Source: the human T2T-CHM13v2.0 reference genome, Homo sapiens
Length of the DNA stretch: 64,000 nt
Reading direction: 5' to 3' (one strand)
Assembly (NCBI RefSeq): GCF_009914755.1
Contig: NC_060927.1
The notes under the pieces: generated by a model
The model's database searches: none
What the model was told of the DNA's origin: nothing
What the model saw: the letters and a program-made list of their open reading frames with translations, nothing else
Made by a program: the position numbers and the translations under genes
Part shown: positions 12,978 to 60,657 of the stretch, one piece after another
Layout of the letters: each line of letters opens with the position of its first letter
How positions within the stretch are numbered: position 1 is the first letter of the stretch

Positions 12978-14761
12978 AAATATAGTCACATGGAATAATA
13001 TCTTATATATGTGTGTGTGTAAATACATATATATGCCCCTAATTATTTTCCTACGCATTCGTAGAAAGGAAAGAAGGGAGGAAAGGGGAGAAAGGGAAGA
13101 AGGGAGGGAAGAAGAGAGAAAAAGAGATTTATGAGATATCTAGATAGATATCTAGATAGCTATCTACCTATCCATCTATCTTATGAGGGACCACAACACA
13201 CAGGCAACATGATTTTCACATTAACACATTTTAGAGGGTTGCTCTTCCGTGTCAATTTATAAAGATCTACCTCTTTCTTTTTACTTCTTCAGAATATTTC
13301 ATAGTGTAAATGTACCATAATTTGTTTACTACTAAGATTGCTATATATTTAGGTTGATTCCAATGTTTTGCTATTTCAAACAATCCTGGAACATACAACT
13401 TTGTGTTCGTATATAAGAATTTTTGTAGGGGAGATTCCTAGAAATACAATTTTTGGATCAAAGGGTATATACATTTCTGGTGTTGATATACAGTAAGATT
13501 GTGCCCCCCTGCAAAAAAACCGTGGGCTCCTCATTTCTCTAAACCCTCACTGATGCTGTATGCAATCAACCTTTAAACATTTTTCCACAATTACCAAAAC
13601 TGCATCCAAAAACTACTCCACAGACATATTCACACTTATGGGAAGTCATGAATGTACACTGCACTGTTAATGGAAAAATACTGAAAAAATATTTCACCAA
13701 TAGGGAAACATTTGGACAGATTGTTGTATATCTGCACAATGAAGTTCTGTGCATCTATTAACAAAATAGCAAGGACTCACTGTATATATCCATAGGGGAA
13801 GCTCTTGAAGGTAGAGGAACAAAGCAGGATGCAGAGCAATTTATACAGTGCATAACCACTAGTGTTTAAAGTGGTGGTAGTAAATATACATGTTTTACTG
13901 TATGTACATTAAAGACAGTGTCTGGGAAATTACACAAGATATTGATAACGGATTGCATTGAGGGAAAAGGCACAAGAGATCTGGGAGAAAGAGGTGGAAA
14001 GGGAACTTTCCACATACATTTTTTATACCTATTTTCATCTTTATCGTTGAACCCTTTAAATGTACTACCTATTCAAATAATTTTTACAGTTTGAATTCAG
14101 ACATTAAAAATCTGCCAAATGGTAGATGATGAGTGCTCTCACTGCTGTTTCAGAGTGCAGTTTCCTAATTGCTGGTGACATTGAACTTGTTTTTATGTTT
14201 ATTGGCCATCCACTCCCTACTCAGATGTCTTTCGCATTTTGCAACTGACTTGTTGCTTTCTTTCCAGATTGCTTTTTAGGGTTTGTTTTTTTTTTAATAT
14301 ATCAATGCTTTTTTTTACAGTTTTATTGAGGTAGATTTTACATACCATAAAAGTCAACCACATAAGTGTGCCATCCAGTGATTTGTAGCAAATGTATAGA
14401 GTTGTACAATCATCACCATATATCAAGAATATTAAGCCATTGGTTCCAGAGCTCCTTGATGCCTCTTGATTACATAATCCTTTGCAGCTTAGCTAGAGGA
14501 AATAGTTTTCCCCCACTGTAACATCTGTCTTTTAGTTTAGACTCCGATATGGACAGATGAAAATTAATCCACCTAGAGAGGCTTGAACATAGACAAAAGT
14601 GACCAAATACAAGGGGCAAATGCAAGTCTCCTACTGAGTCTCAAGAAGAAAAAAGAAGGTTTCACTATGCAAACAGACCATATGAAATATTATTTGACAG
14701 TGTGGCTAATTTCATTCATAAAAACTAAATATGAACTGTGGGTGTCTGAGAATATGTAGAA

Positions 14762-17639: not shown

Positions 17640-18850
<1,211 letters not shown>

Positions 18851-39194: not shown

Positions 39195-41322
<2,128 letters not shown>

Positions 41323-52910: not shown

Positions 52911-53022
52911 AGGTTTGTCAGGCATTTAATAATTAATACCTTTCATTGTTTTTGTCTGGAAAGAGTGTGTGCAAAGATACTTAACAACCAAATGTAATGT
53001 GTGATCCTTGATCGGCTCTTGC

Positions 53023-53088
53023 ATTTTTTTTTTTTTTTTTGAGACGGAGTCTCACTCTGTCGCCCAAGCTGCTGGAATGCAGTGGCGC
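53023..53088 (-). mobile_element. Severely 5'-truncated Alu (~65 bp) with TSD
   Basis: Poly(T) plus gagacggagtctcactctgtcgccca; TSD gat(c/t)ggctcttgc at 53010-53022 and 53089-53101. Confidence 0.85.
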
Positions 53089-53313
53089 GATTGGCTCTTG
53101 CTTTCTAAATAAAATGCCTATAAGATATTCTTAGGACAAGTGGGGGAAATTAAATCGGGAAGAGAATTATTATGAAATTAATGATCTTAGGTATAATAAT
53201 TGTACTGCGGTTATGTAGCAGAACATCTATTCTTAGGAGATACATGCTGCAATGTTAAAGGGTTAAGGGTTACAATGTCTGTAACTTACTTGCAAATGGT
53301 GACCCCAAAAAGG

Positions 53314-53433
<120 letters not shown>

Positions 53434-53765
53434 ACGCGCTTTGGAAGGCTACAATTGCGAGAAGCGCAGGTCTCCGCCACCGAAGCTTTAGACTCATAAG
53501 CCGGGTCAGGCCAAATTCCGCTGTGCGTAGGGGAACAAACGGCACAAACGGGGCACAAACGGGGAACAAACGGCATACGCAACCGTCCCCGCGGGAGCCC
53601 CGGCCCAGCTCAGCGCACCCGCCAGCATGCCCCACCCTGATTGGTCCACTTGCTCAGCTCGCCGGCACCCCTATATCCAATTGGCGTAGCGCTTGCTGAG
53701 CGGCGGCGGCAACCGACGTACACAAGGGGCTTGAGCGTTCTGTGGAGAGAGTGCGAGGTCAGGCC

Positions 53766-53776
53766 ATGAACTTGGG
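53766..53776 (+). CDS. CCDC66: CCDC66 coding exon 1 (ATG AAC TTG GG; M-N-L-G)
   Basis: gccATGa start in a CpG-rich region, followed by donor GGG|GTAAGC. Joins in frame to exon 2 to give MNLGDGLKLE, the N-terminus I recognise for CCDC66. Confidence 0.9.
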
Positions 53777-53823
53777 GTAAGCAGGGGTAAGCAGGGGTAA
53801 GCTGGGGTAAGCTGGGGTAAGCA
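53774..53823 (+). repeat. 10-bp tandem repeat (GGGGTAAGCW)x5 spanning the exon 1 splice donor
   Basis: GGGGTAAGCA GGGGTAAGCA GGGGTAAGCT GGGGTAAGCT GGGGTAAGCA read directly. Confidence 0.97.
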
Positions 53824-55378
53824 AGGTGGTCGTCAGCGGAGAGGGAGGCATGTGTGTCTGGGTTGTCCCTTGGAGTCTTTACTGGAGAACGTTCCCAACC
53901 TGCGCCGCCGAGAGGGGCAGAGCCCAGTTCTCGGGTAGAAGATCGAGGCAGATGGGTCGGCCCTTAGCGACTCCACAGACCTTACGTTTTCACTTAATGA
54001 CTAGCATTAAAACTGCCAGTGATCCCCTTTCGGTCCCTTATTTACCTCAGGATGAGGAGGGAAGAGAGGTGAGGAGGAAAGGAGAGAAATGACGAGACAG
54101 TTAGAGGAAGCGTGGCGGCTCCTGGGGAGGACTCCTGGCCCATGCCCCGGGTTCTTCGCCACCTTGTTTTTGGAGTCTTGCAGAATGTTGAAACGCCCAA
54201 ATTCGTTTTAGGCCCACGAGGCGGGGAACCAGGCTTCTCAAGAAATCGATGTAGTACCAGTGCCTAACACCTAGTAGGCGCTCCTTAAGTAGGGGTGAAT
54301 AAATAAAAAGGGCTGGTGCATGGTCTTCATCACTCGCAAGTTTGATATTTTGAGAAGATGAGAAGCCACCAAACTCAGACCTAACTACACATCGTTCAGC
54401 AAATGTTATTATGTTTTAGAATCTGGGGATATGGAAATAAATAAGATAGTGTGTCCCTTAAGGAGATTACAGTGCAGTGCGTCATTGAAGGTACTTTACC
54501 ATTGAAGCTCTTTTCTTTCTTGGTGACGTTTCACCAACATAAACACGAACTGTTCATAACCCTACAATAAGGAAAGCCGTAAAACCTATTCTTTCCAGTG
54601 TTTTACCTTTAATAGTTAAGGTGAGGTAATTTGATTTCCCCTACCTGAGCAACACCGCAAATTTCGCATTCCTAATCAGACCTTTCCCAGCCTCTCTCTC
54701 CCTTGACTGGCTTGCTGGATTTAATTTTCTCTCTCTGAATTATGGACTGTATGTATGGGCTGCCATTTTTGTTCTCAGTGGAGTTTTAGGACCTTAACAG
54801 ACGTTCAAGTTTTGTTGGCAGTGGCTACTGTTACTTTATGCCTTTGCTTCTGATATGCACGTATAAAGCACCATACTAAATATCACTATGTATTATTTGA
54901 AATATTGAAAGTGGTACTCTTTGCTCAAGCAGTTACTAACCTTGATGGCATTGTTAGTAGTCATATCGATGCTCCAGCACTCCATAGAATGTTTTAGTCA
55001 TGAGTTCATTATGAAACTAATGAATGGCGGTTAAATATATCTTGTTCCTTTAACTTATGTGAGGAGTTTTGGTAACAGCATTATTAAAAAATGGTGGTAT
55101 GATAACTTAATTTATAGTTTACCAATAACAAAATGAGATTTCAGGTTAATGATAACAATGCTTGTAGTATTGAAGAGTTTCAAGAATTTTCCCCCTGTAG
55201 TTGTGGGTTTTATCTTGGATTGCAAACGTTTTTAATTAAAACACTGGTTCGATGTGTACAAGATTCCTGCATAAATTCAAAATAATGGATTTATTGTCAG
55301 GTTCAAATGAACATTTCTGGTTATTTAAAATGTTGCGGTTTGTTAAAAATGAGAGACAACTTTCTTTTTTTATTACAG

Positions 55379-55443
55379 AGATGGTTTAAAGCTTGAAACT
55401 GAATTACTGGATGGAAAAACCAAGCTAATATTGTCTCCATATG
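55379..55443 (+). CDS. CCDC66: CCDC66 exon 2 (65 nt; DGLKLETELLDGKTKLILSPY)
   Basis: Acceptor tttctttttttattacag|A and donor G|gtatgt; phases fit exons 1 and 3. Confidence 0.92.
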
Positions 55444-56101
55444 GTATGTTGTGTTACAGAAATCTGAAATGTTAACTTTTAAATTCATACATAAAATTTA
55501 TATTAGTTCAACAGACTTTTTGCTTGTAATAGAGTGATATTTAAATGATATTTTAGAAAAAGCTGTTTCCTCAAACTTCTGCAGATTTCCTTCTAGCCAA
55601 ATAAAATCACATTACAACACTGCTTACTACTGTCAGTATTCAGACTCATAACATTTAATGTTCCAGTATATTGCATGTTCATTATATCCATATAGCAAAT
55701 ATCCTCATTGCCTGATGAATAATACAAGTAAAATTTATGTAATTATGTTCTTTGCATGTAAAGAATGTATCATTTGAGAAAAGTTTATAGTAAGACCACC
55801 GTAAAATGCTAAAGTCACTTTTAGTATTCGTTTTTAAACTCAGTGTACTTTGGTACCTTCTCCTTCGCATTTTTTTTTCTGTTTATAGTTTTACCTTGGA
55901 AAGATAAAAAACAAAAATAAAATAGAAGTAAATCCTTGAACTGGATTAGAAAAAAATACTCAGTCAAGATCTAAAGTTTATGCTTTCGAGGATAATGTTG
56001 CTAGCTTAAAATCTTATAACAATATTAATTACAGTTTTCTTGCATTAACACCTTAGTATGCTTTTGGTGGATAGTTTAGTAATTTCTTTTTTCTTTTGTA
56101 G

Positions 56102-56127
56102 AACATAAATCAAAAATTTCTGTGAAG
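56102..56127 (+). CDS. CCDC66: CCDC66 exon 3, 26-nt micro-exon (EHKSKISVK)
   Basis: Acceptor tttcttttttcttttgtag| and donor AAG|gtaagc. Exons 1-3 total 102 nt (34 codons), in frame with exon 4. Confidence 0.9.
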
Positions 56128-56384
56128 GTAAGCCGTATAACTTTGACCTGACCTGTTTTCAAATGTAAAATGCAGTTTTATTTACAGTGGTTAGAAAATA
56201 ATTCCTGGGAAATGTCAAGTGTTCTAAGGGGTTTGGAATTATAGTGAGGAGTTATTATTTTCTTGCTTTCAGATTGGTCCTTTCACAGAAATTGAATCAT
56301 TTTAGGTTTAGCCCAATAGAACCTCTTTCTCTAGATAAGTGCTATTCAGTAAAGCATCTGTGTTAATGGAAGTGTTCATTAATA

Positions 56385-56538
56385 AAATCAGTATTATCGA
56401 ATATGGAAGCCACTAGTCATGTATAGTTATTGAACCCTTAAAATGTAACTAGTATGACTGAGCAACTGAATTTCTAATTTCCTTTAATTTTTAATGGAAT
56501 TTAATGGATAATGGATTGTACTGGACAATGCACTCCAG
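56385..56538. mobile_element. MER3/MER33-like DNA transposon remnant
   Basis: agccactagtcatgtatagttattgaac...tagtatgactgagcaactgaatttctaattt. Confidence 0.6.
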
Positions 56539-56765: not shown

Positions 56766-59905
<3,140 letters not shown>

Positions 59906-60215: not shown

Positions 60216-60657
60216 ATGGGAAATAAGGCCAAGATTGCAAAATGTCCTTTAAGAACAAAAACTGGGCACATTCTAAAATCAACACAAGATACTTGTATTG
60301 GGAGTGAAAAACTTTTGCAAAAGAAGCCAGTTGGTTCAGAAACATCACAGGCAAAAGGTGAAAAAAATGGAATGACTTTTTCATCCACTAAGGATTTATG
60401 TAAACAATGTATAGATAAAGACTGTCTTCATATCCAGAAAGAGATTTCACCTGCAACTCCTAATATGCAGAAGACTAGAAACACCGTAAATACATCTCTA
60501 GTAGGTAAACAGAAGCCTCACAAAAAACACATCACAGCTGAAAACATGAAGAGCAGTTTGGTGTGTCTAACACAAGACCAACTACAACAGATTTTGATGA
60601 CTGTAAACCAAGGAAATAGATCTCTTTCCCTGACTGAGAATGGAAAGGAGGCAAAAA
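60216..60657 (+). CDS. CCDC66: CCDC66 exon 4 (442 nt; MGNKAKIAK...NGKEAK)
   Basis: ORF-track 60216..60683; acceptor ttttaacag|ATG; donor A|gtaaga; non-repeat peptide recognised as CCDC66. Confidence 0.95.

What the first reader, a model, noticed from the sequence alone, without database searches (positions are those of the whole stretch)
53766..53823. CCDC66 exon 1 splice donor is a tandem repeat: five identical 5' splice sites, only the first keeps the frame open
Seen: a 10-bp unit repeated five times puts the same 9-mer GGG|GTAAGC at 53777, 53787, 53797, 53807 and 53817. Splicing at donor 1 gives MNLG-DGLK.... Any later donor retains ATG AAC TTG GGG TAA, a 4-codon uORF. The out-of-frame ATGs in exons 2-3 (55381 MV*, 55411 MEKPS*, 55441 MNINQKFL*) all stop before the exon 4 ATG, which has a strong context (aagATGg) and starts a protein 34 residues shorter. 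Inference: repeat copy number could act as a heritable dial between long isoform, N-truncated isoform and NMD. A 10-bp unit gain would also be mis-annotated as a coding frameshift when left-aligned. I recall such a common indel at this gene but cannot verify it.
Basis: partly seen in the sequence, partly recalled or inferred. Interest (0 to 1): 0.8.

Follow-up and report, generated by a model that had tools for sequence, protein, structure and literature searches.

The report
Repeated splice donor at CCDC66 exon 1
The end of CCDC66's first exon lies in a common 10-base repeat that copies the same splice signal five times; this is real but belongs to a known kind of repeat, and available evidence suggests mainly the first copy is used.

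Summary
A 10-bp unit repeated five times (53774-53823) starts 3 nt before the end of CCDC66 exon 1. It gives five identical GGG|GTAAGC donors. Only the first keeps the ATG-53766 frame open. Later donors leave a 4-codon uORF (MNLG*), and the exon-4 ATG (60216) then starts a protein 34 residues shorter.

Most of this is already known in pieces:
- The repeat is a catalogued common VNTR: 4 copies in GRCh38, 5 here, alleles of 20-60 bp.
- It is a reported expression-associated VNTR, but fine-mapping gave it a causal probability of 2.9e-5.
- The short protein is RefSeq isoform 2 (914 aa).
- Minisatellites that reiterate a splice donor are a described class (F7 IVS7, IFI6, CBS). In those genes only the first one to three donors are used.

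RefSeq annotates only donors 1 and 2 here. MNLGDGL is the N-terminus in 27 of 68 long representatives of an unnamed library, down to about 30% identity. A macaque gene model implies only 2 units.

The "heritable dial" idea is untested and weakly supported. My four searches found no paper linking this VNTR to its donor copies. I rate it a new member of a known kind, of moderate interest as a natural test of 5' splice-site choice at 10-nt spacing.

The parts
53679..53776 (+). CCDC66 exon 1 (alternative starts 53679 and 53698), ending at donor 1
   Evidence: Hub annotation; sequence and junctions read.
53766..53768 (+). First ATG (caggccATGa). It starts the 948-aa isoform when donor 1 is used and a 4-codon uORF otherwise.
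   Evidence: P0021 (948 aa) starts MNLGDGLK.
53774..53823 (+). 10-bp tandem repeat, 5 units (GGGGTAAGC + A/A/T/T/A). This is the known polymorphic CCDC66 VNTR.
   Evidence: Literature.
53777..53782 (+). Donor 1 (GGG|GTAAGC), the only one that keeps the ATG-53766 frame open. It is the donor of the selected transcript.
   Evidence: U1 duplex -9.2 kcal/mol; hub annotation, exon end 53776.
53787..53792 (+). Donor 2 (identical 9-mer). Used by at least one annotated transcript and gives the MNLG* uORF.
   Evidence: Hub annotation, exon 53679-53786.
53797..53822 (+). Donors 3-5 (GT at 53797, 53807, 53817). Identical 9-mers with no annotated use.
   Evidence: No first exon in the hub table ends at 53796, 53806 or 53816.
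53778..53780 (+). TAA inside unit 1. It is in frame with ATG 53766 whenever donor 1 is not used.
   Evidence: MNLG*.
53758..53763 (+). Annotated alternative donor GAG|GTCAGG upstream of the ATG. Its use removes ATG 53766 from the mRNA.
   Evidence: Hub annotation, exon 53679-53757; (U1 duplex -6.0).
53774..53817 (+). Canonical G-quadruplex motif: five GGGG runs with 6-nt loops on the sense (non-template) strand.
   Evidence: It is one of 4 such motifs on the + strand of the window, with none on the - strand. G4Hunter maximum is 1.92.
55379..55443 (+). Exon 2, with out-of-frame ATGs at 55381 (MV*), 55411 (MEKPS*) and 55441 (MNINQKFL*).
56102..56127 (+). Exon 3. It holds the TGA of the third short ORF, 2 nt before the exon-4 ATG in the mRNA.
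60216..60218 (+). Exon-4 ATG (gtgaagATGg), the start of the 914-aa isoform 2.
   Evidence: P0012 (914 aa, named isoform 2) starts MGNKAKIAK.

Best explanation
This is the known, common CCDC66 exon 1/intron 1 minisatellite. It has a 10-bp unit, with 4 copies in GRCh38, 5 in this assembly, and population alleles of about 2-6 units. Its first unit spans the exon-intron junction, so the donor GGG|GTAAGC is reiterated in intron 1.

It belongs to the described class of donor-reiterating minisatellites (F7 IVS7, IFI6/6-16, CBS IVS13). It most likely behaves like them:
- The upstream-most, cap-proximal donor is chosen for most transcripts. This yields the N-terminus MNLGDGL..., which is conserved in distant relatives.
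- The second donor is used in a minority. That turns ATG 53766 into a 4-codon uORF and leaves only the exon-4 ATG, giving isoform 2 (914 aa), with or without partial decay of the mRNA.
- Copies 3-5 are mostly silent intron.
- Changes in copy number are then largely neutral. The published expression association would mainly reflect linkage to other variants.

Shown here: the anatomy, the frames, the polymorphism, the annotated use of donors 1 and 2, and conservation of the long N-terminus. Inferred: the relative usage of the donors, the fate of donor-2 mRNAs, and neutrality.
For: Anatomy and frames.

Donor strength: all five donors have the same predicted U1 pairing, -9.2 kcal/mol with 6 of 9 consensus matches. 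Sequence strength therefore cannot separate them; position must.

Annotation: first exons end only at 53757, 53776 and 53786 (hub table).

Protein models: human isoform 1 has 948 aa and isoform 2 has 914 aa. Of the 120 primate models listed (best 120 of 523 hits), 85 start MNLGDGLKLETE and 14 start at the exon-4 Met.

Conservation: 27 of the 68 long (>=600 aa) representatives start exactly MNLGDGL, and 41 of 68 carry a loosened form of the motif. The Met aligned with human Met35 is present in only 4 of 15 aligned relatives.

Polymorphism: GRCh38 has period 10 and 4.0 copies, and 2,176 of 2,504 samples are non-reference. Alleles span 20-60 bp.

Fine-mapping against causality: p-value rank 118, CAVIAR rank 101, probability 2.9e-5.

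Precedents (Borensztajn 2006): in F7, only the most upstream of 5-9 identical donors is used, in several cell types. IFI6 and CBS use the authentic donor plus two pseudo-sites (for IFI6, the two most proximal).

Macaque: a gene model implies 2 units, through an exact 30-nt gap against the window. Copy number has therefore changed in primates while MNLGDGLKLETE remains the commonest start among the primate models listed.
Against: - I saw no RNA-seq junction counts, so the dominance of donor 1 rests on annotation and analogy.
- The F7 units are 37 nt apart, not 10. According to Borensztajn's introduction, IFI6 uses three of its donors constitutively (I recall a 12-nt period, but I did not see it). 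Leakage at 10-nt spacing could therefore be substantial, and decay could hide it.
- The expression association is negative (-0.12, longer allele means less mRNA). It replicated in the Icelandic and Geuvadis cohorts and was found independently in lymphoblastoid lines (p 1.19e-6). That is the direction a dial would give.
- The fine-mapping used a 20-bp unit model for a 10-bp repeat. This may have blurred genotypes and understated causality.
Confidence: 0.6

Rival explanations
1. Each added unit adds a competing, equally strong donor. Longer alleles then divert more transcripts from the long isoform to uORF-laden mRNAs, which are degraded or translated from the exon-4 ATG. Copy number becomes a heritable quantitative control of CCDC66 dose and isoform ratio.
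For: - The five donors have identical predicted U1 pairing.
- Donor 2 is used in annotation (hub table).
- The short isoform is annotated in human and other primates.
- The replicated expression association has the predicted negative sign, and there is an independent association in lymphoblastoid lines.
- IFI6 and CBS use more than one reiterated donor.
Against: - CAVIAR causal probability is 2.9e-5, rank 101.
- F7 shows no use of downstream copies over 5-9 units.
- No annotated exon ends at donors 3-5.
- The lost N-terminus is conserved in distant relatives, while the repeat is highly polymorphic in healthy people. That fits tolerance better than a large dose effect.
Confidence: 0.2
2. A G-run or G-quadruplex element. 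The five GGGG runs act as intronic G-run enhancers (hnRNP H/F type), or fold into a quadruplex in the pre-mRNA or in the non-template DNA. This would leave or favour donor 1 and mask the later copies. Copy number would then act through transcription, pausing or R-loops rather than through donor competition.
For: - There is a canonical quadruplex motif at 53774-53817 with G4Hunter up to 1.92. Only 63 of 63,976 windows reach 1.75.
- No competing Watson-Crick structure is predicted (z = +1.02).
- GGGG next to a donor changes splicing through hnRNP A1 and H.
Against: - 48% of human first introns have four or more G-runs in their first 100 nt, so this is not distinctive.
- In the reporter of Han 2005, GGGG at intron +8 to +11, the spacing found here, had no added effect, and GGGG within +3 to +10 was silencing rather than enhancing.
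- Quadruplex folding was not tested here. From recall, RNA quadruplexes are reported to be largely unfolded in cells.
- The F7 authors found no need for auxiliary intronic elements.
Confidence: 0.12
3. A U1-recruiting promoter-proximal element. Several strong 5' splice sites within about 140 nt of the cap raise U1 snRNP occupancy and so boost transcription or suppress premature polyadenylation. More copies would mean more expression.
For: - There are five strong U1-complementary sites 79-140 nt from the annotated starts.
- The array lies inside RefSeq 'enhancer' features (hub table).
- The general effect of promoter-proximal 5' splice sites is recalled knowledge and was not checked here.
Against: - The reported effect has the opposite sign: longer allele, lower expression.
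- At 10-nt spacing, neighbouring sites probably cannot all be occupied at once (inference).
Confidence: 0.05

Closest known systems
F7 (coagulation factor VII) IVS7 37-bp minisatellite (Borensztajn et al. 2006, PMC1557585; abstract, Introduction and Discussion read)
   Same: The first monomer spans the exon-intron junction: the last 4 bp of the exon there, the last 3 bp here. The authentic donor is followed by strictly identical copies. Copy number is polymorphic (5-9 there). The upstream-most site is the physiological one.
   Different: - The unit is 37 bp against 10 bp.
- It sits on an internal exon rather than the first exon.
- The F7 donor is weak (TGG|GTGGGT), whereas this one is strong (GGG|GTAAGC).
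- In F7 the pseudo-sites are silent, whereas here donor 2 is annotated as used.
- Here the repeat lies 11 nt after the start codon, so the alternative is a change of start codon rather than a broken protein.
IFI6 (6-16) intron-2 minisatellite that provides multiple splice donors (Turri et al. 1995; seen only as a citation and as described in PMC1557585, because the paper is not held)
   Same: It has a short period (12 nt, from recall). [quoted passage not shown] This is the closest analogue for annotated use of donors 1 and 2.
   Different: The array has about 26 copies. From recall, its 12-nt period keeps the frame, so the products differ by whole codons. Here the 10-nt unit shifts the frame and carries an in-frame TAA.
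CBS IVS13 minisatellite, and the LMNB2 and PDGF intronic minisatellites (as listed in the Introduction of PMC1557585)
   Same: The first monomer spans an exon-intron boundary. Either only the first donor is used (LMNB2, PDGF) or the first plus two others (CBS).
   Different: The units are longer and the exons are internal. No link to the choice of start codon is described.
Published CCDC66 VNTR / eVNTR entries (adVNTR, PMC6211647 and PMC8024321; VNTRseek TRID 182857044, PMC8096271)
   Same: This is the same locus and repeat. The listed pattern TGGGGTAAGCAGGGGTAAGC matches the window from 53773, with period 10 and 4 copies in GRCh38.
   Different: Those papers label it 'Coding' and treat it as an expression marker. 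In the passages and supplement rows I saw, none mentions that each unit is a splice donor, or the uORF and isoform consequences.

Membership tests
Minisatellite whose first monomer spans an exon-intron boundary and reiterates the splice donor (class described in PMC1557585) | Tandem repeat whose first unit contains the annotated exon end and donor | tested here: met
   The repeat starts at 53774 and the exon ends at 53776 (hub annotation).
Minisatellite whose first monomer spans an exon-intron boundary and reiterates the splice donor (class described in PMC1557585) | Downstream units carry donor sequences identical to the authentic one | tested here: met
   There are five identical 9-mers GGG|GTAAGC, all with a U1 duplex of -9.2 kcal/mol.
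Minisatellite whose first monomer spans an exon-intron boundary and reiterates the splice donor (class described in PMC1557585) | Copy number polymorphic in the population | tested here: met
   This assembly has 5 units and GRCh38 has 4.0. 2,176 of 2,504 samples are non-reference and alleles span 20-60 bp. This rests on published tables, not on my own genotyping.
Minisatellite whose first monomer spans an exon-intron boundary and reiterates the splice donor (class described in PMC1557585) | Splicing uses the upstream-most donor, alone or with the next one or two copies | tested here: inconclusive
   Annotated first exons end at donor 1 and donor 2 only (hub table). No junction read counts were available.
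Causal expression VNTR (eVNTR) | Repeat length associated with expression of the gene, and replicated | tested here: met
   Effect -0.12 in whole blood, replicated in the Icelandic and Geuvadis cohorts. Lymphoblastoid lines gave p 1.19e-6. Literature only.
Causal expression VNTR (eVNTR) | Fine-mapping places the repeat among the likely causal variants | tested here: not met
   Best p-value rank 118, CAVIAR rank 101, causality probability 2.9e-5. Caveat: that study modelled a 20-bp unit.
Alternative 5' splice site that switches the start codon through a uORF | The alternative donor converts the main ATG into a short uORF, and a downstream in-frame ATG in good context exists | tested here: met
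   MNLG* with donors 2-5. The exon-4 ATG sits in gtgaagATGg, 97 nt after the uORF stop for donor 2.
Alternative 5' splice site that switches the start codon through a uORF | The shorter protein is actually made from those transcripts | not testable with these tools
   Only annotation was available: isoform 2, 914 aa, P0012. I saw no ribosome profiling or proteomics.
Canonical G-quadruplex-forming sequence | Four or more runs of at least 3 G separated by loops of 1-7 nt | tested here: met
   53774-53817 holds five GGGG runs with 6-nt loops; G4Hunter maximum 1.92.
Canonical G-quadruplex-forming sequence | Folds into a quadruplex in DNA or RNA | not testable with these tools
   No biophysical or rG4-seq data were available. 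ViennaRNA as run here gave no significant structure.

The most novel reading that the evidence does not exclude
The array is a 'donor ladder' coupled to a reinitiation switch. The number of retained units is set both by the inherited copy number and by which donor is chosen. It fixes the distance from the 4-codon uORF stop to the three out-of-frame ATGs of exons 2-3 at 8, 18, 28 or 38 nt to the first of them, and 97-127 nt to the exon-4 ATG.

Ribosomes that resume scanning after MNLG* would skip the nearby decoy ATGs and restart at the exon-4 ATG. Repeat length and eIF2 status together would then tune the ratio of full-length CCDC66 (with its conserved N-terminus) to N-truncated CCDC66. It would be a heritable, stress-sensitive isoform dial in a cilium and centrosome gene, arisen within primates, since macaque has 2 units.
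Probability: 0.1. Interest if true: 0.7.

Novelty: new member of a known kind. Interest (0 to 1): 0.38.

Why it matters
If donor 1 is chosen regardless of copy number, this is a natural case in a human population where up to six equally strong donors lie only 10 nt apart. That spacing is closer than two U1 snRNPs can probably sit side by side, yet the first donor would still win. Common alleles of 2-6 units already exist in cohorts with RNA-seq, so the rules of 5' splice-site choice could be tested without building anything.

It also has a practical side. Gain or loss of a unit among the first two is left-aligned into the coding sequence and across the donor. Pipelines can then call a common, probably harmless length variant a frameshift or splice-donor loss in a gene linked to retinal degeneration in dogs and mice.

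If the dial reading were true, a common repeat would set the dose and N-terminal form of a ciliary protein.

Tried and rejected
- RNA secondary structure masking the later donors: folding 53698-53860 gave z = +1.02, and 168 of 200 shuffles folded at least as well. Rejected.
- Known RNA families in 53000-56500: only a sub-threshold SCARNA2 match, 16.8 bits against a gathering score of 48. Rejected.
- Donor strength as the discriminator: all five donors are equal. Rejected.
- Literature searches that led nowhere:
  - CCDC66 + sQTL: 0 papers.
  - The 9-mer as a text term: 115 papers; the 25 listed looked unrelated by title and abstract, and none was opened.
  - The misannotation search gave nothing on this gene.
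  - The hydroxychloroquine retinopathy, xenograft and UK Biobank pLOF papers concern other CCDC66 variants.
  - The spl-TR catalogue supplements list only a non-significant intronic GTTTT repeat for CCDC66, and their file 1 could not be searched.
  - The adVNTR 2018 supplements had no CCDC66 entry, and file 1 could not be searched.
  - Column headers for the VNTRseek tables were not found.
- Turri 1995 (IFI6) is not held.
- Genome-wide rarity: three GGTAAG at a 10-bp period gave 6 matches at 4 loci, 3 of the matches being this locus. The tool's reversed-pattern control hit satellite DNA and is uninformative, and the counts are lower bounds.
- Orthologous DNA from other species could not be fetched with these tools. 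Only a macaque read-through gene model served as a proxy.

Full report
**What is there.** Reading 53600-53960 shows ...gccATGAACTTGGGGTAAGCAGGGGTAAGCAGGGGTAAGCTGGGGTAAGCTGGGGTAAGCAAGGTGG.... Tandem Repeats Finder reports 53774-53823 with period 10, 5.0 copies, 95% matches and score 86. The units are GGGGTAAGC followed by A, A, T, T, A.

The annotated exon 1 ends at 53776, so the repeat begins 3 nt inside the exon. Each unit offers the same 9-mer GGG|GTAAGC, with GT at 53777, 53787, 53797, 53807 and 53817. The 9-mer occurs 6 times in the window against 0.35 expected, and 0 of 100 shuffles reach 6. The sixth copy, at 58380, is deep in intron 3. A three-unit pattern matches nowhere else in the 3.1-Gb assembly. 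Three GGTAAG at a 10-bp period gave 6 matches at 4 loci genome-wide, 3 of them here. That count is a lower bound by the tool's own warning.

**Frames.** I built the mRNA for each donor.
- Donor 1 gives MNLGDGLK... with the frame open.
- Donors 2-5, and the weak sixth GT at 53826, give MNLG*.
- The annotated upstream donor at 53758 removes the ATG altogether.
- The exon 2-3 ATGs give MV*, MEKPS* and MNINQKFL*. The last of these stops 2 nt before the exon-4 ATG.
- The exon-4 ATG (gtgaagATGg) lies exactly 34 codons into the long CDS.

For donor 2, the uORF stop lies 8, 38 and 68 nt before the three decoy ATGs and 97 nt before the exon-4 ATG. Each further retained unit adds 10 nt.

**Donor strength and structure.** All five donors have the same predicted pairing to the 5' end of U1, -9.2 kcal/mol with 6 of 9 consensus positions. 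They are among the strongest of the first six exons. The upstream donor 53758 scores -6.0 and 53826 scores -5.9. The U1 sequence was typed from textbook memory.

The region has no significant Watson-Crick fold (z = +1.02) and no Rfam match. The five GGGG runs with 6-nt loops form a canonical quadruplex motif on the sense strand. It is one of 4 on the + strand of the window, with none on the - strand, and G4Hunter reaches 1.92. [quoted passage not shown]

**It is a known polymorphism.**
- Bakhtiari et al. 2021 (PMC8024321; Table 1 passage; supplement row and header) list chr3:56557249-56557289 (GRCh38) with pattern TGGGGTAAGCAGGGGTAAGC, gene CCDC66, labelled 'Coding'. That string is the window sequence from 53773. 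Observed alleles span 20-60 bp. The effect is -0.12 in whole blood, replicated in the Icelandic and Geuvadis cohorts. The lowest p-value is 2.0e-6, but the best p-value rank is 118, the CAVIAR rank is 101 and the causality probability is 2.9e-5.
- The adVNTR paper (PMC6211647, passage and Figure 4 legend) shows population frequencies for this 'coding VNTR in CCDC66'.
- VNTRseek (PMC8096271; Discussion passage; supplement rows) lists TRID 182857044 at chr3:56557251-56557290 with period 10, 40 bp and 4 copies. The row reads '328, 2176, 2504, 0, 0/1, 1082'. I did not find a header. The arithmetic of this and neighbouring rows indicates 328 reference-only samples, 2,176 samples with a non-reference allele, 2,504 genotyped, and 0/+1 as the commonest genotype in 1,082. 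The lymphoblastoid expression test gave p 1.19e-6 and FDR 1.96e-5.

**Mis-annotation.** I simulated duplication and deletion of each unit. A change among units 1-2 (A-type) left-aligns to an insertion after 53773, or to a deletion of 53774-53783. That places it in the CDS and across the donor. Right-aligned, the same change sits at intron +17 to +26. Changes of the T-type units or of the last unit stay intronic under either convention. In all ten cases the exon 1 sequence and donor 1 are unchanged.

**What the isoforms are.** The protein database returned named models. Human isoform 1 has 948 aa (P0021, MNLGDGLK...) and isoform 2 has 914 aa (P0012, MGNKAKIAK..., the exon-4 Met). The 120 primate models listed (the best 120 of 523 hits) start as follows:

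| N-terminal start | Models |
|---|---|
| MNLGDGLKLETE | 85 |
| Exon-4 Met (MGNK...) | 14 |
| MMGNK | 10 |
| Other first exons | 11 |

MMGNK is what the exon-2 terminal ATG joined directly to exon 4 would give; that is my inference. The hub table lists first exons ending at 53757, 53776 and 53786 only. The N-truncated isoform and the use of donor 2 are therefore already in RefSeq. Which transcript encodes isoform 2 I recall but did not see.

**Conservation.** A search of cluster representatives with P0021 gave 264 hits, of which the best 150 were listed. Of the 68 that are 600 aa or longer, 27 start exactly MNLGDGL, and 41 have a loosened form of the motif within the first 15 residues. This holds down to about 30% overall identity.

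Fifteen relatives with MNLGDGLK-like starts were aligned. Only 4 keep a Met at the position of human Met35. The long N-terminus, which needs ATG 53766 and donor 1, is ancient. The exon-4 start is found only in some lineages. The library carries no names, so I cannot assign taxa.

**A glimpse of another primate.** One macaque ab initio model (P0113) reads straight through exon 1 into intron 1. A tblastn of it against the window aligns with an exact 10-residue (30-nt, three-unit) gap inside the repeat: macaque ELGVSWGKEGG against human ELGVSRGKQG*AGVSWGKQGG. The macaque sequence behind that model therefore has 2 units, and its second 9-mer probably ends in G. This is inferred from a protein model, not from DNA.

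**Comparison with what is known.** Borensztajn et al. 2006 (PMC1557585; abstract, Introduction and Discussion read) describe exactly this class: minisatellites whose first monomer spans an exon-intron boundary.
- In F7 IVS7 (37-bp unit, 5-9 copies), only the most upstream of the identical donors is used, in several cell types. The downstream copies are functional but silent, and no auxiliary intronic element was needed.
- Their Introduction reports that IFI6 (6-16) uses the authentic donor plus the two most proximal of 25 pseudo-sites.
- CBS IVS13 uses two pseudo-sites, and LMNB2 and PDGF use only the authentic site.
- The original IFI6 paper is not held.

CCDC66 fits the class on anatomy, identity of the copies and polymorphism. 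Usage (donor 1 plus donor 2) matches the IFI6/CBS pattern by annotation only.

It differs in three ways. It has a very short 10-nt period. It sits at the first exon, 11 nt after the start codon. Each unit carries an in-frame TAA, so the alternative outcome is a uORF plus a change of start codon.

Across four searches (CCDC66 with 'tandem repeat', with sQTL, with splice-site or VNTR terms, and the 9-mer as text) I found no paper stating that the units of this VNTR are splice donors. Supplements I could not open may bear on this: file 1 of PMC10078293 and file 1 of PMC6211647.

**Mechanism, and how sure I am.** I think it most likely (about 0.6) that position decides. The upstream-most, cap-proximal donor is taken for most transcripts, the second leaks, and copies 3-5 are silent. 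Copy number would then be near neutral, and the expression association mostly linkage.

The association has a replicated negative sign. The published fine-mapping used a mis-specified 20-bp unit. IFI6 uses several of its reiterated donors. Decay could hide the products.

A G-run or quadruplex role (about 0.12) is possible but undistinctive. GGGG at +8 to +11 had no added effect in the one reporter I read about (PMC1079783, passages). A U1-recruitment role (about 0.05) predicts the wrong sign.

None of these could be separated without junction-level RNA data, which these tools do not hold.

**Verdict.** The polymorphism, the expression association and the short isoform are already known, and the kind of element is known from other genes. 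The specific link between this VNTR and its reiterated donors appears not to be in print. It offers a cheap test in existing population data of how 5' splice sites are chosen at 10-nt spacing.

Noticed in passing
window 53316-53433: A (GT)59 dinucleotide repeat (118 bp, 96% matches) lies about 250-360 bp upstream of the annotated CCDC66 transcription starts. It is likely polymorphic and could be among the variants linked to the VNTR in expression studies.
   Followed up: no
window 53530-53573: An 11-bp tandem repeat (GGGGAACAAAC-like, 4.2 copies) sits about 105-150 bp upstream of the transcription start, inside the RefSeq 'enhancer' 53120-53823. It is a second G-run-bearing short repeat in the promoter.
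   Followed up: no
window 53504-53513 and 53757-53766: There is an exact 10-nt direct repeat GGTCAGGCCA, 253 nt apart. The second copy contains the annotated upstream donor (GAG|GTCAGG) and runs into the A of the start codon. It may be chance.
   Followed up: no
window 55441-55443 with 60216: Exon 2 ends in ATG and exon 4 begins with ATG. Skipping the 26-nt exon 3 would give MMGNK..., which matches the start of human isoform 7 (P0014, 915 aa) and 9 other primate models.
   Followed up: partly
P0113 (macaque model) against window 53627-53960: An ab initio macaque gene model translates the promoter, exon 1 and intron 1 as coding sequence. It is wrong as a protein but useful as a proxy for the macaque genomic sequence. 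Human has stops (TAG, TGA) where the model reads W and G.
   Followed up: partly
window 53823/53824: The boundary between two RefSeq 'enhancer' features (53120-53823 and 53824-54495) falls exactly at the 3' end of the repeat. The reason is unknown; it may be an artefact of how the assayed fragments were mapped around the repeat.
   Followed up: no
window 13076-13108, 18680-18705, 41143-41164: These are the only other canonical quadruplex motifs on the + strand of the 64-kb window, and there are none on the - strand.
   Followed up: no
G000 C2:170966749-170966774 and C23:108486516-108486541 (-): Two other places in the assembly carry three GGTAAG at a 10-bp period (units GGTAAGTGTG and GGTAAGGTGR). 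Whether either sits at an exon boundary was not checked.
   Followed up: no
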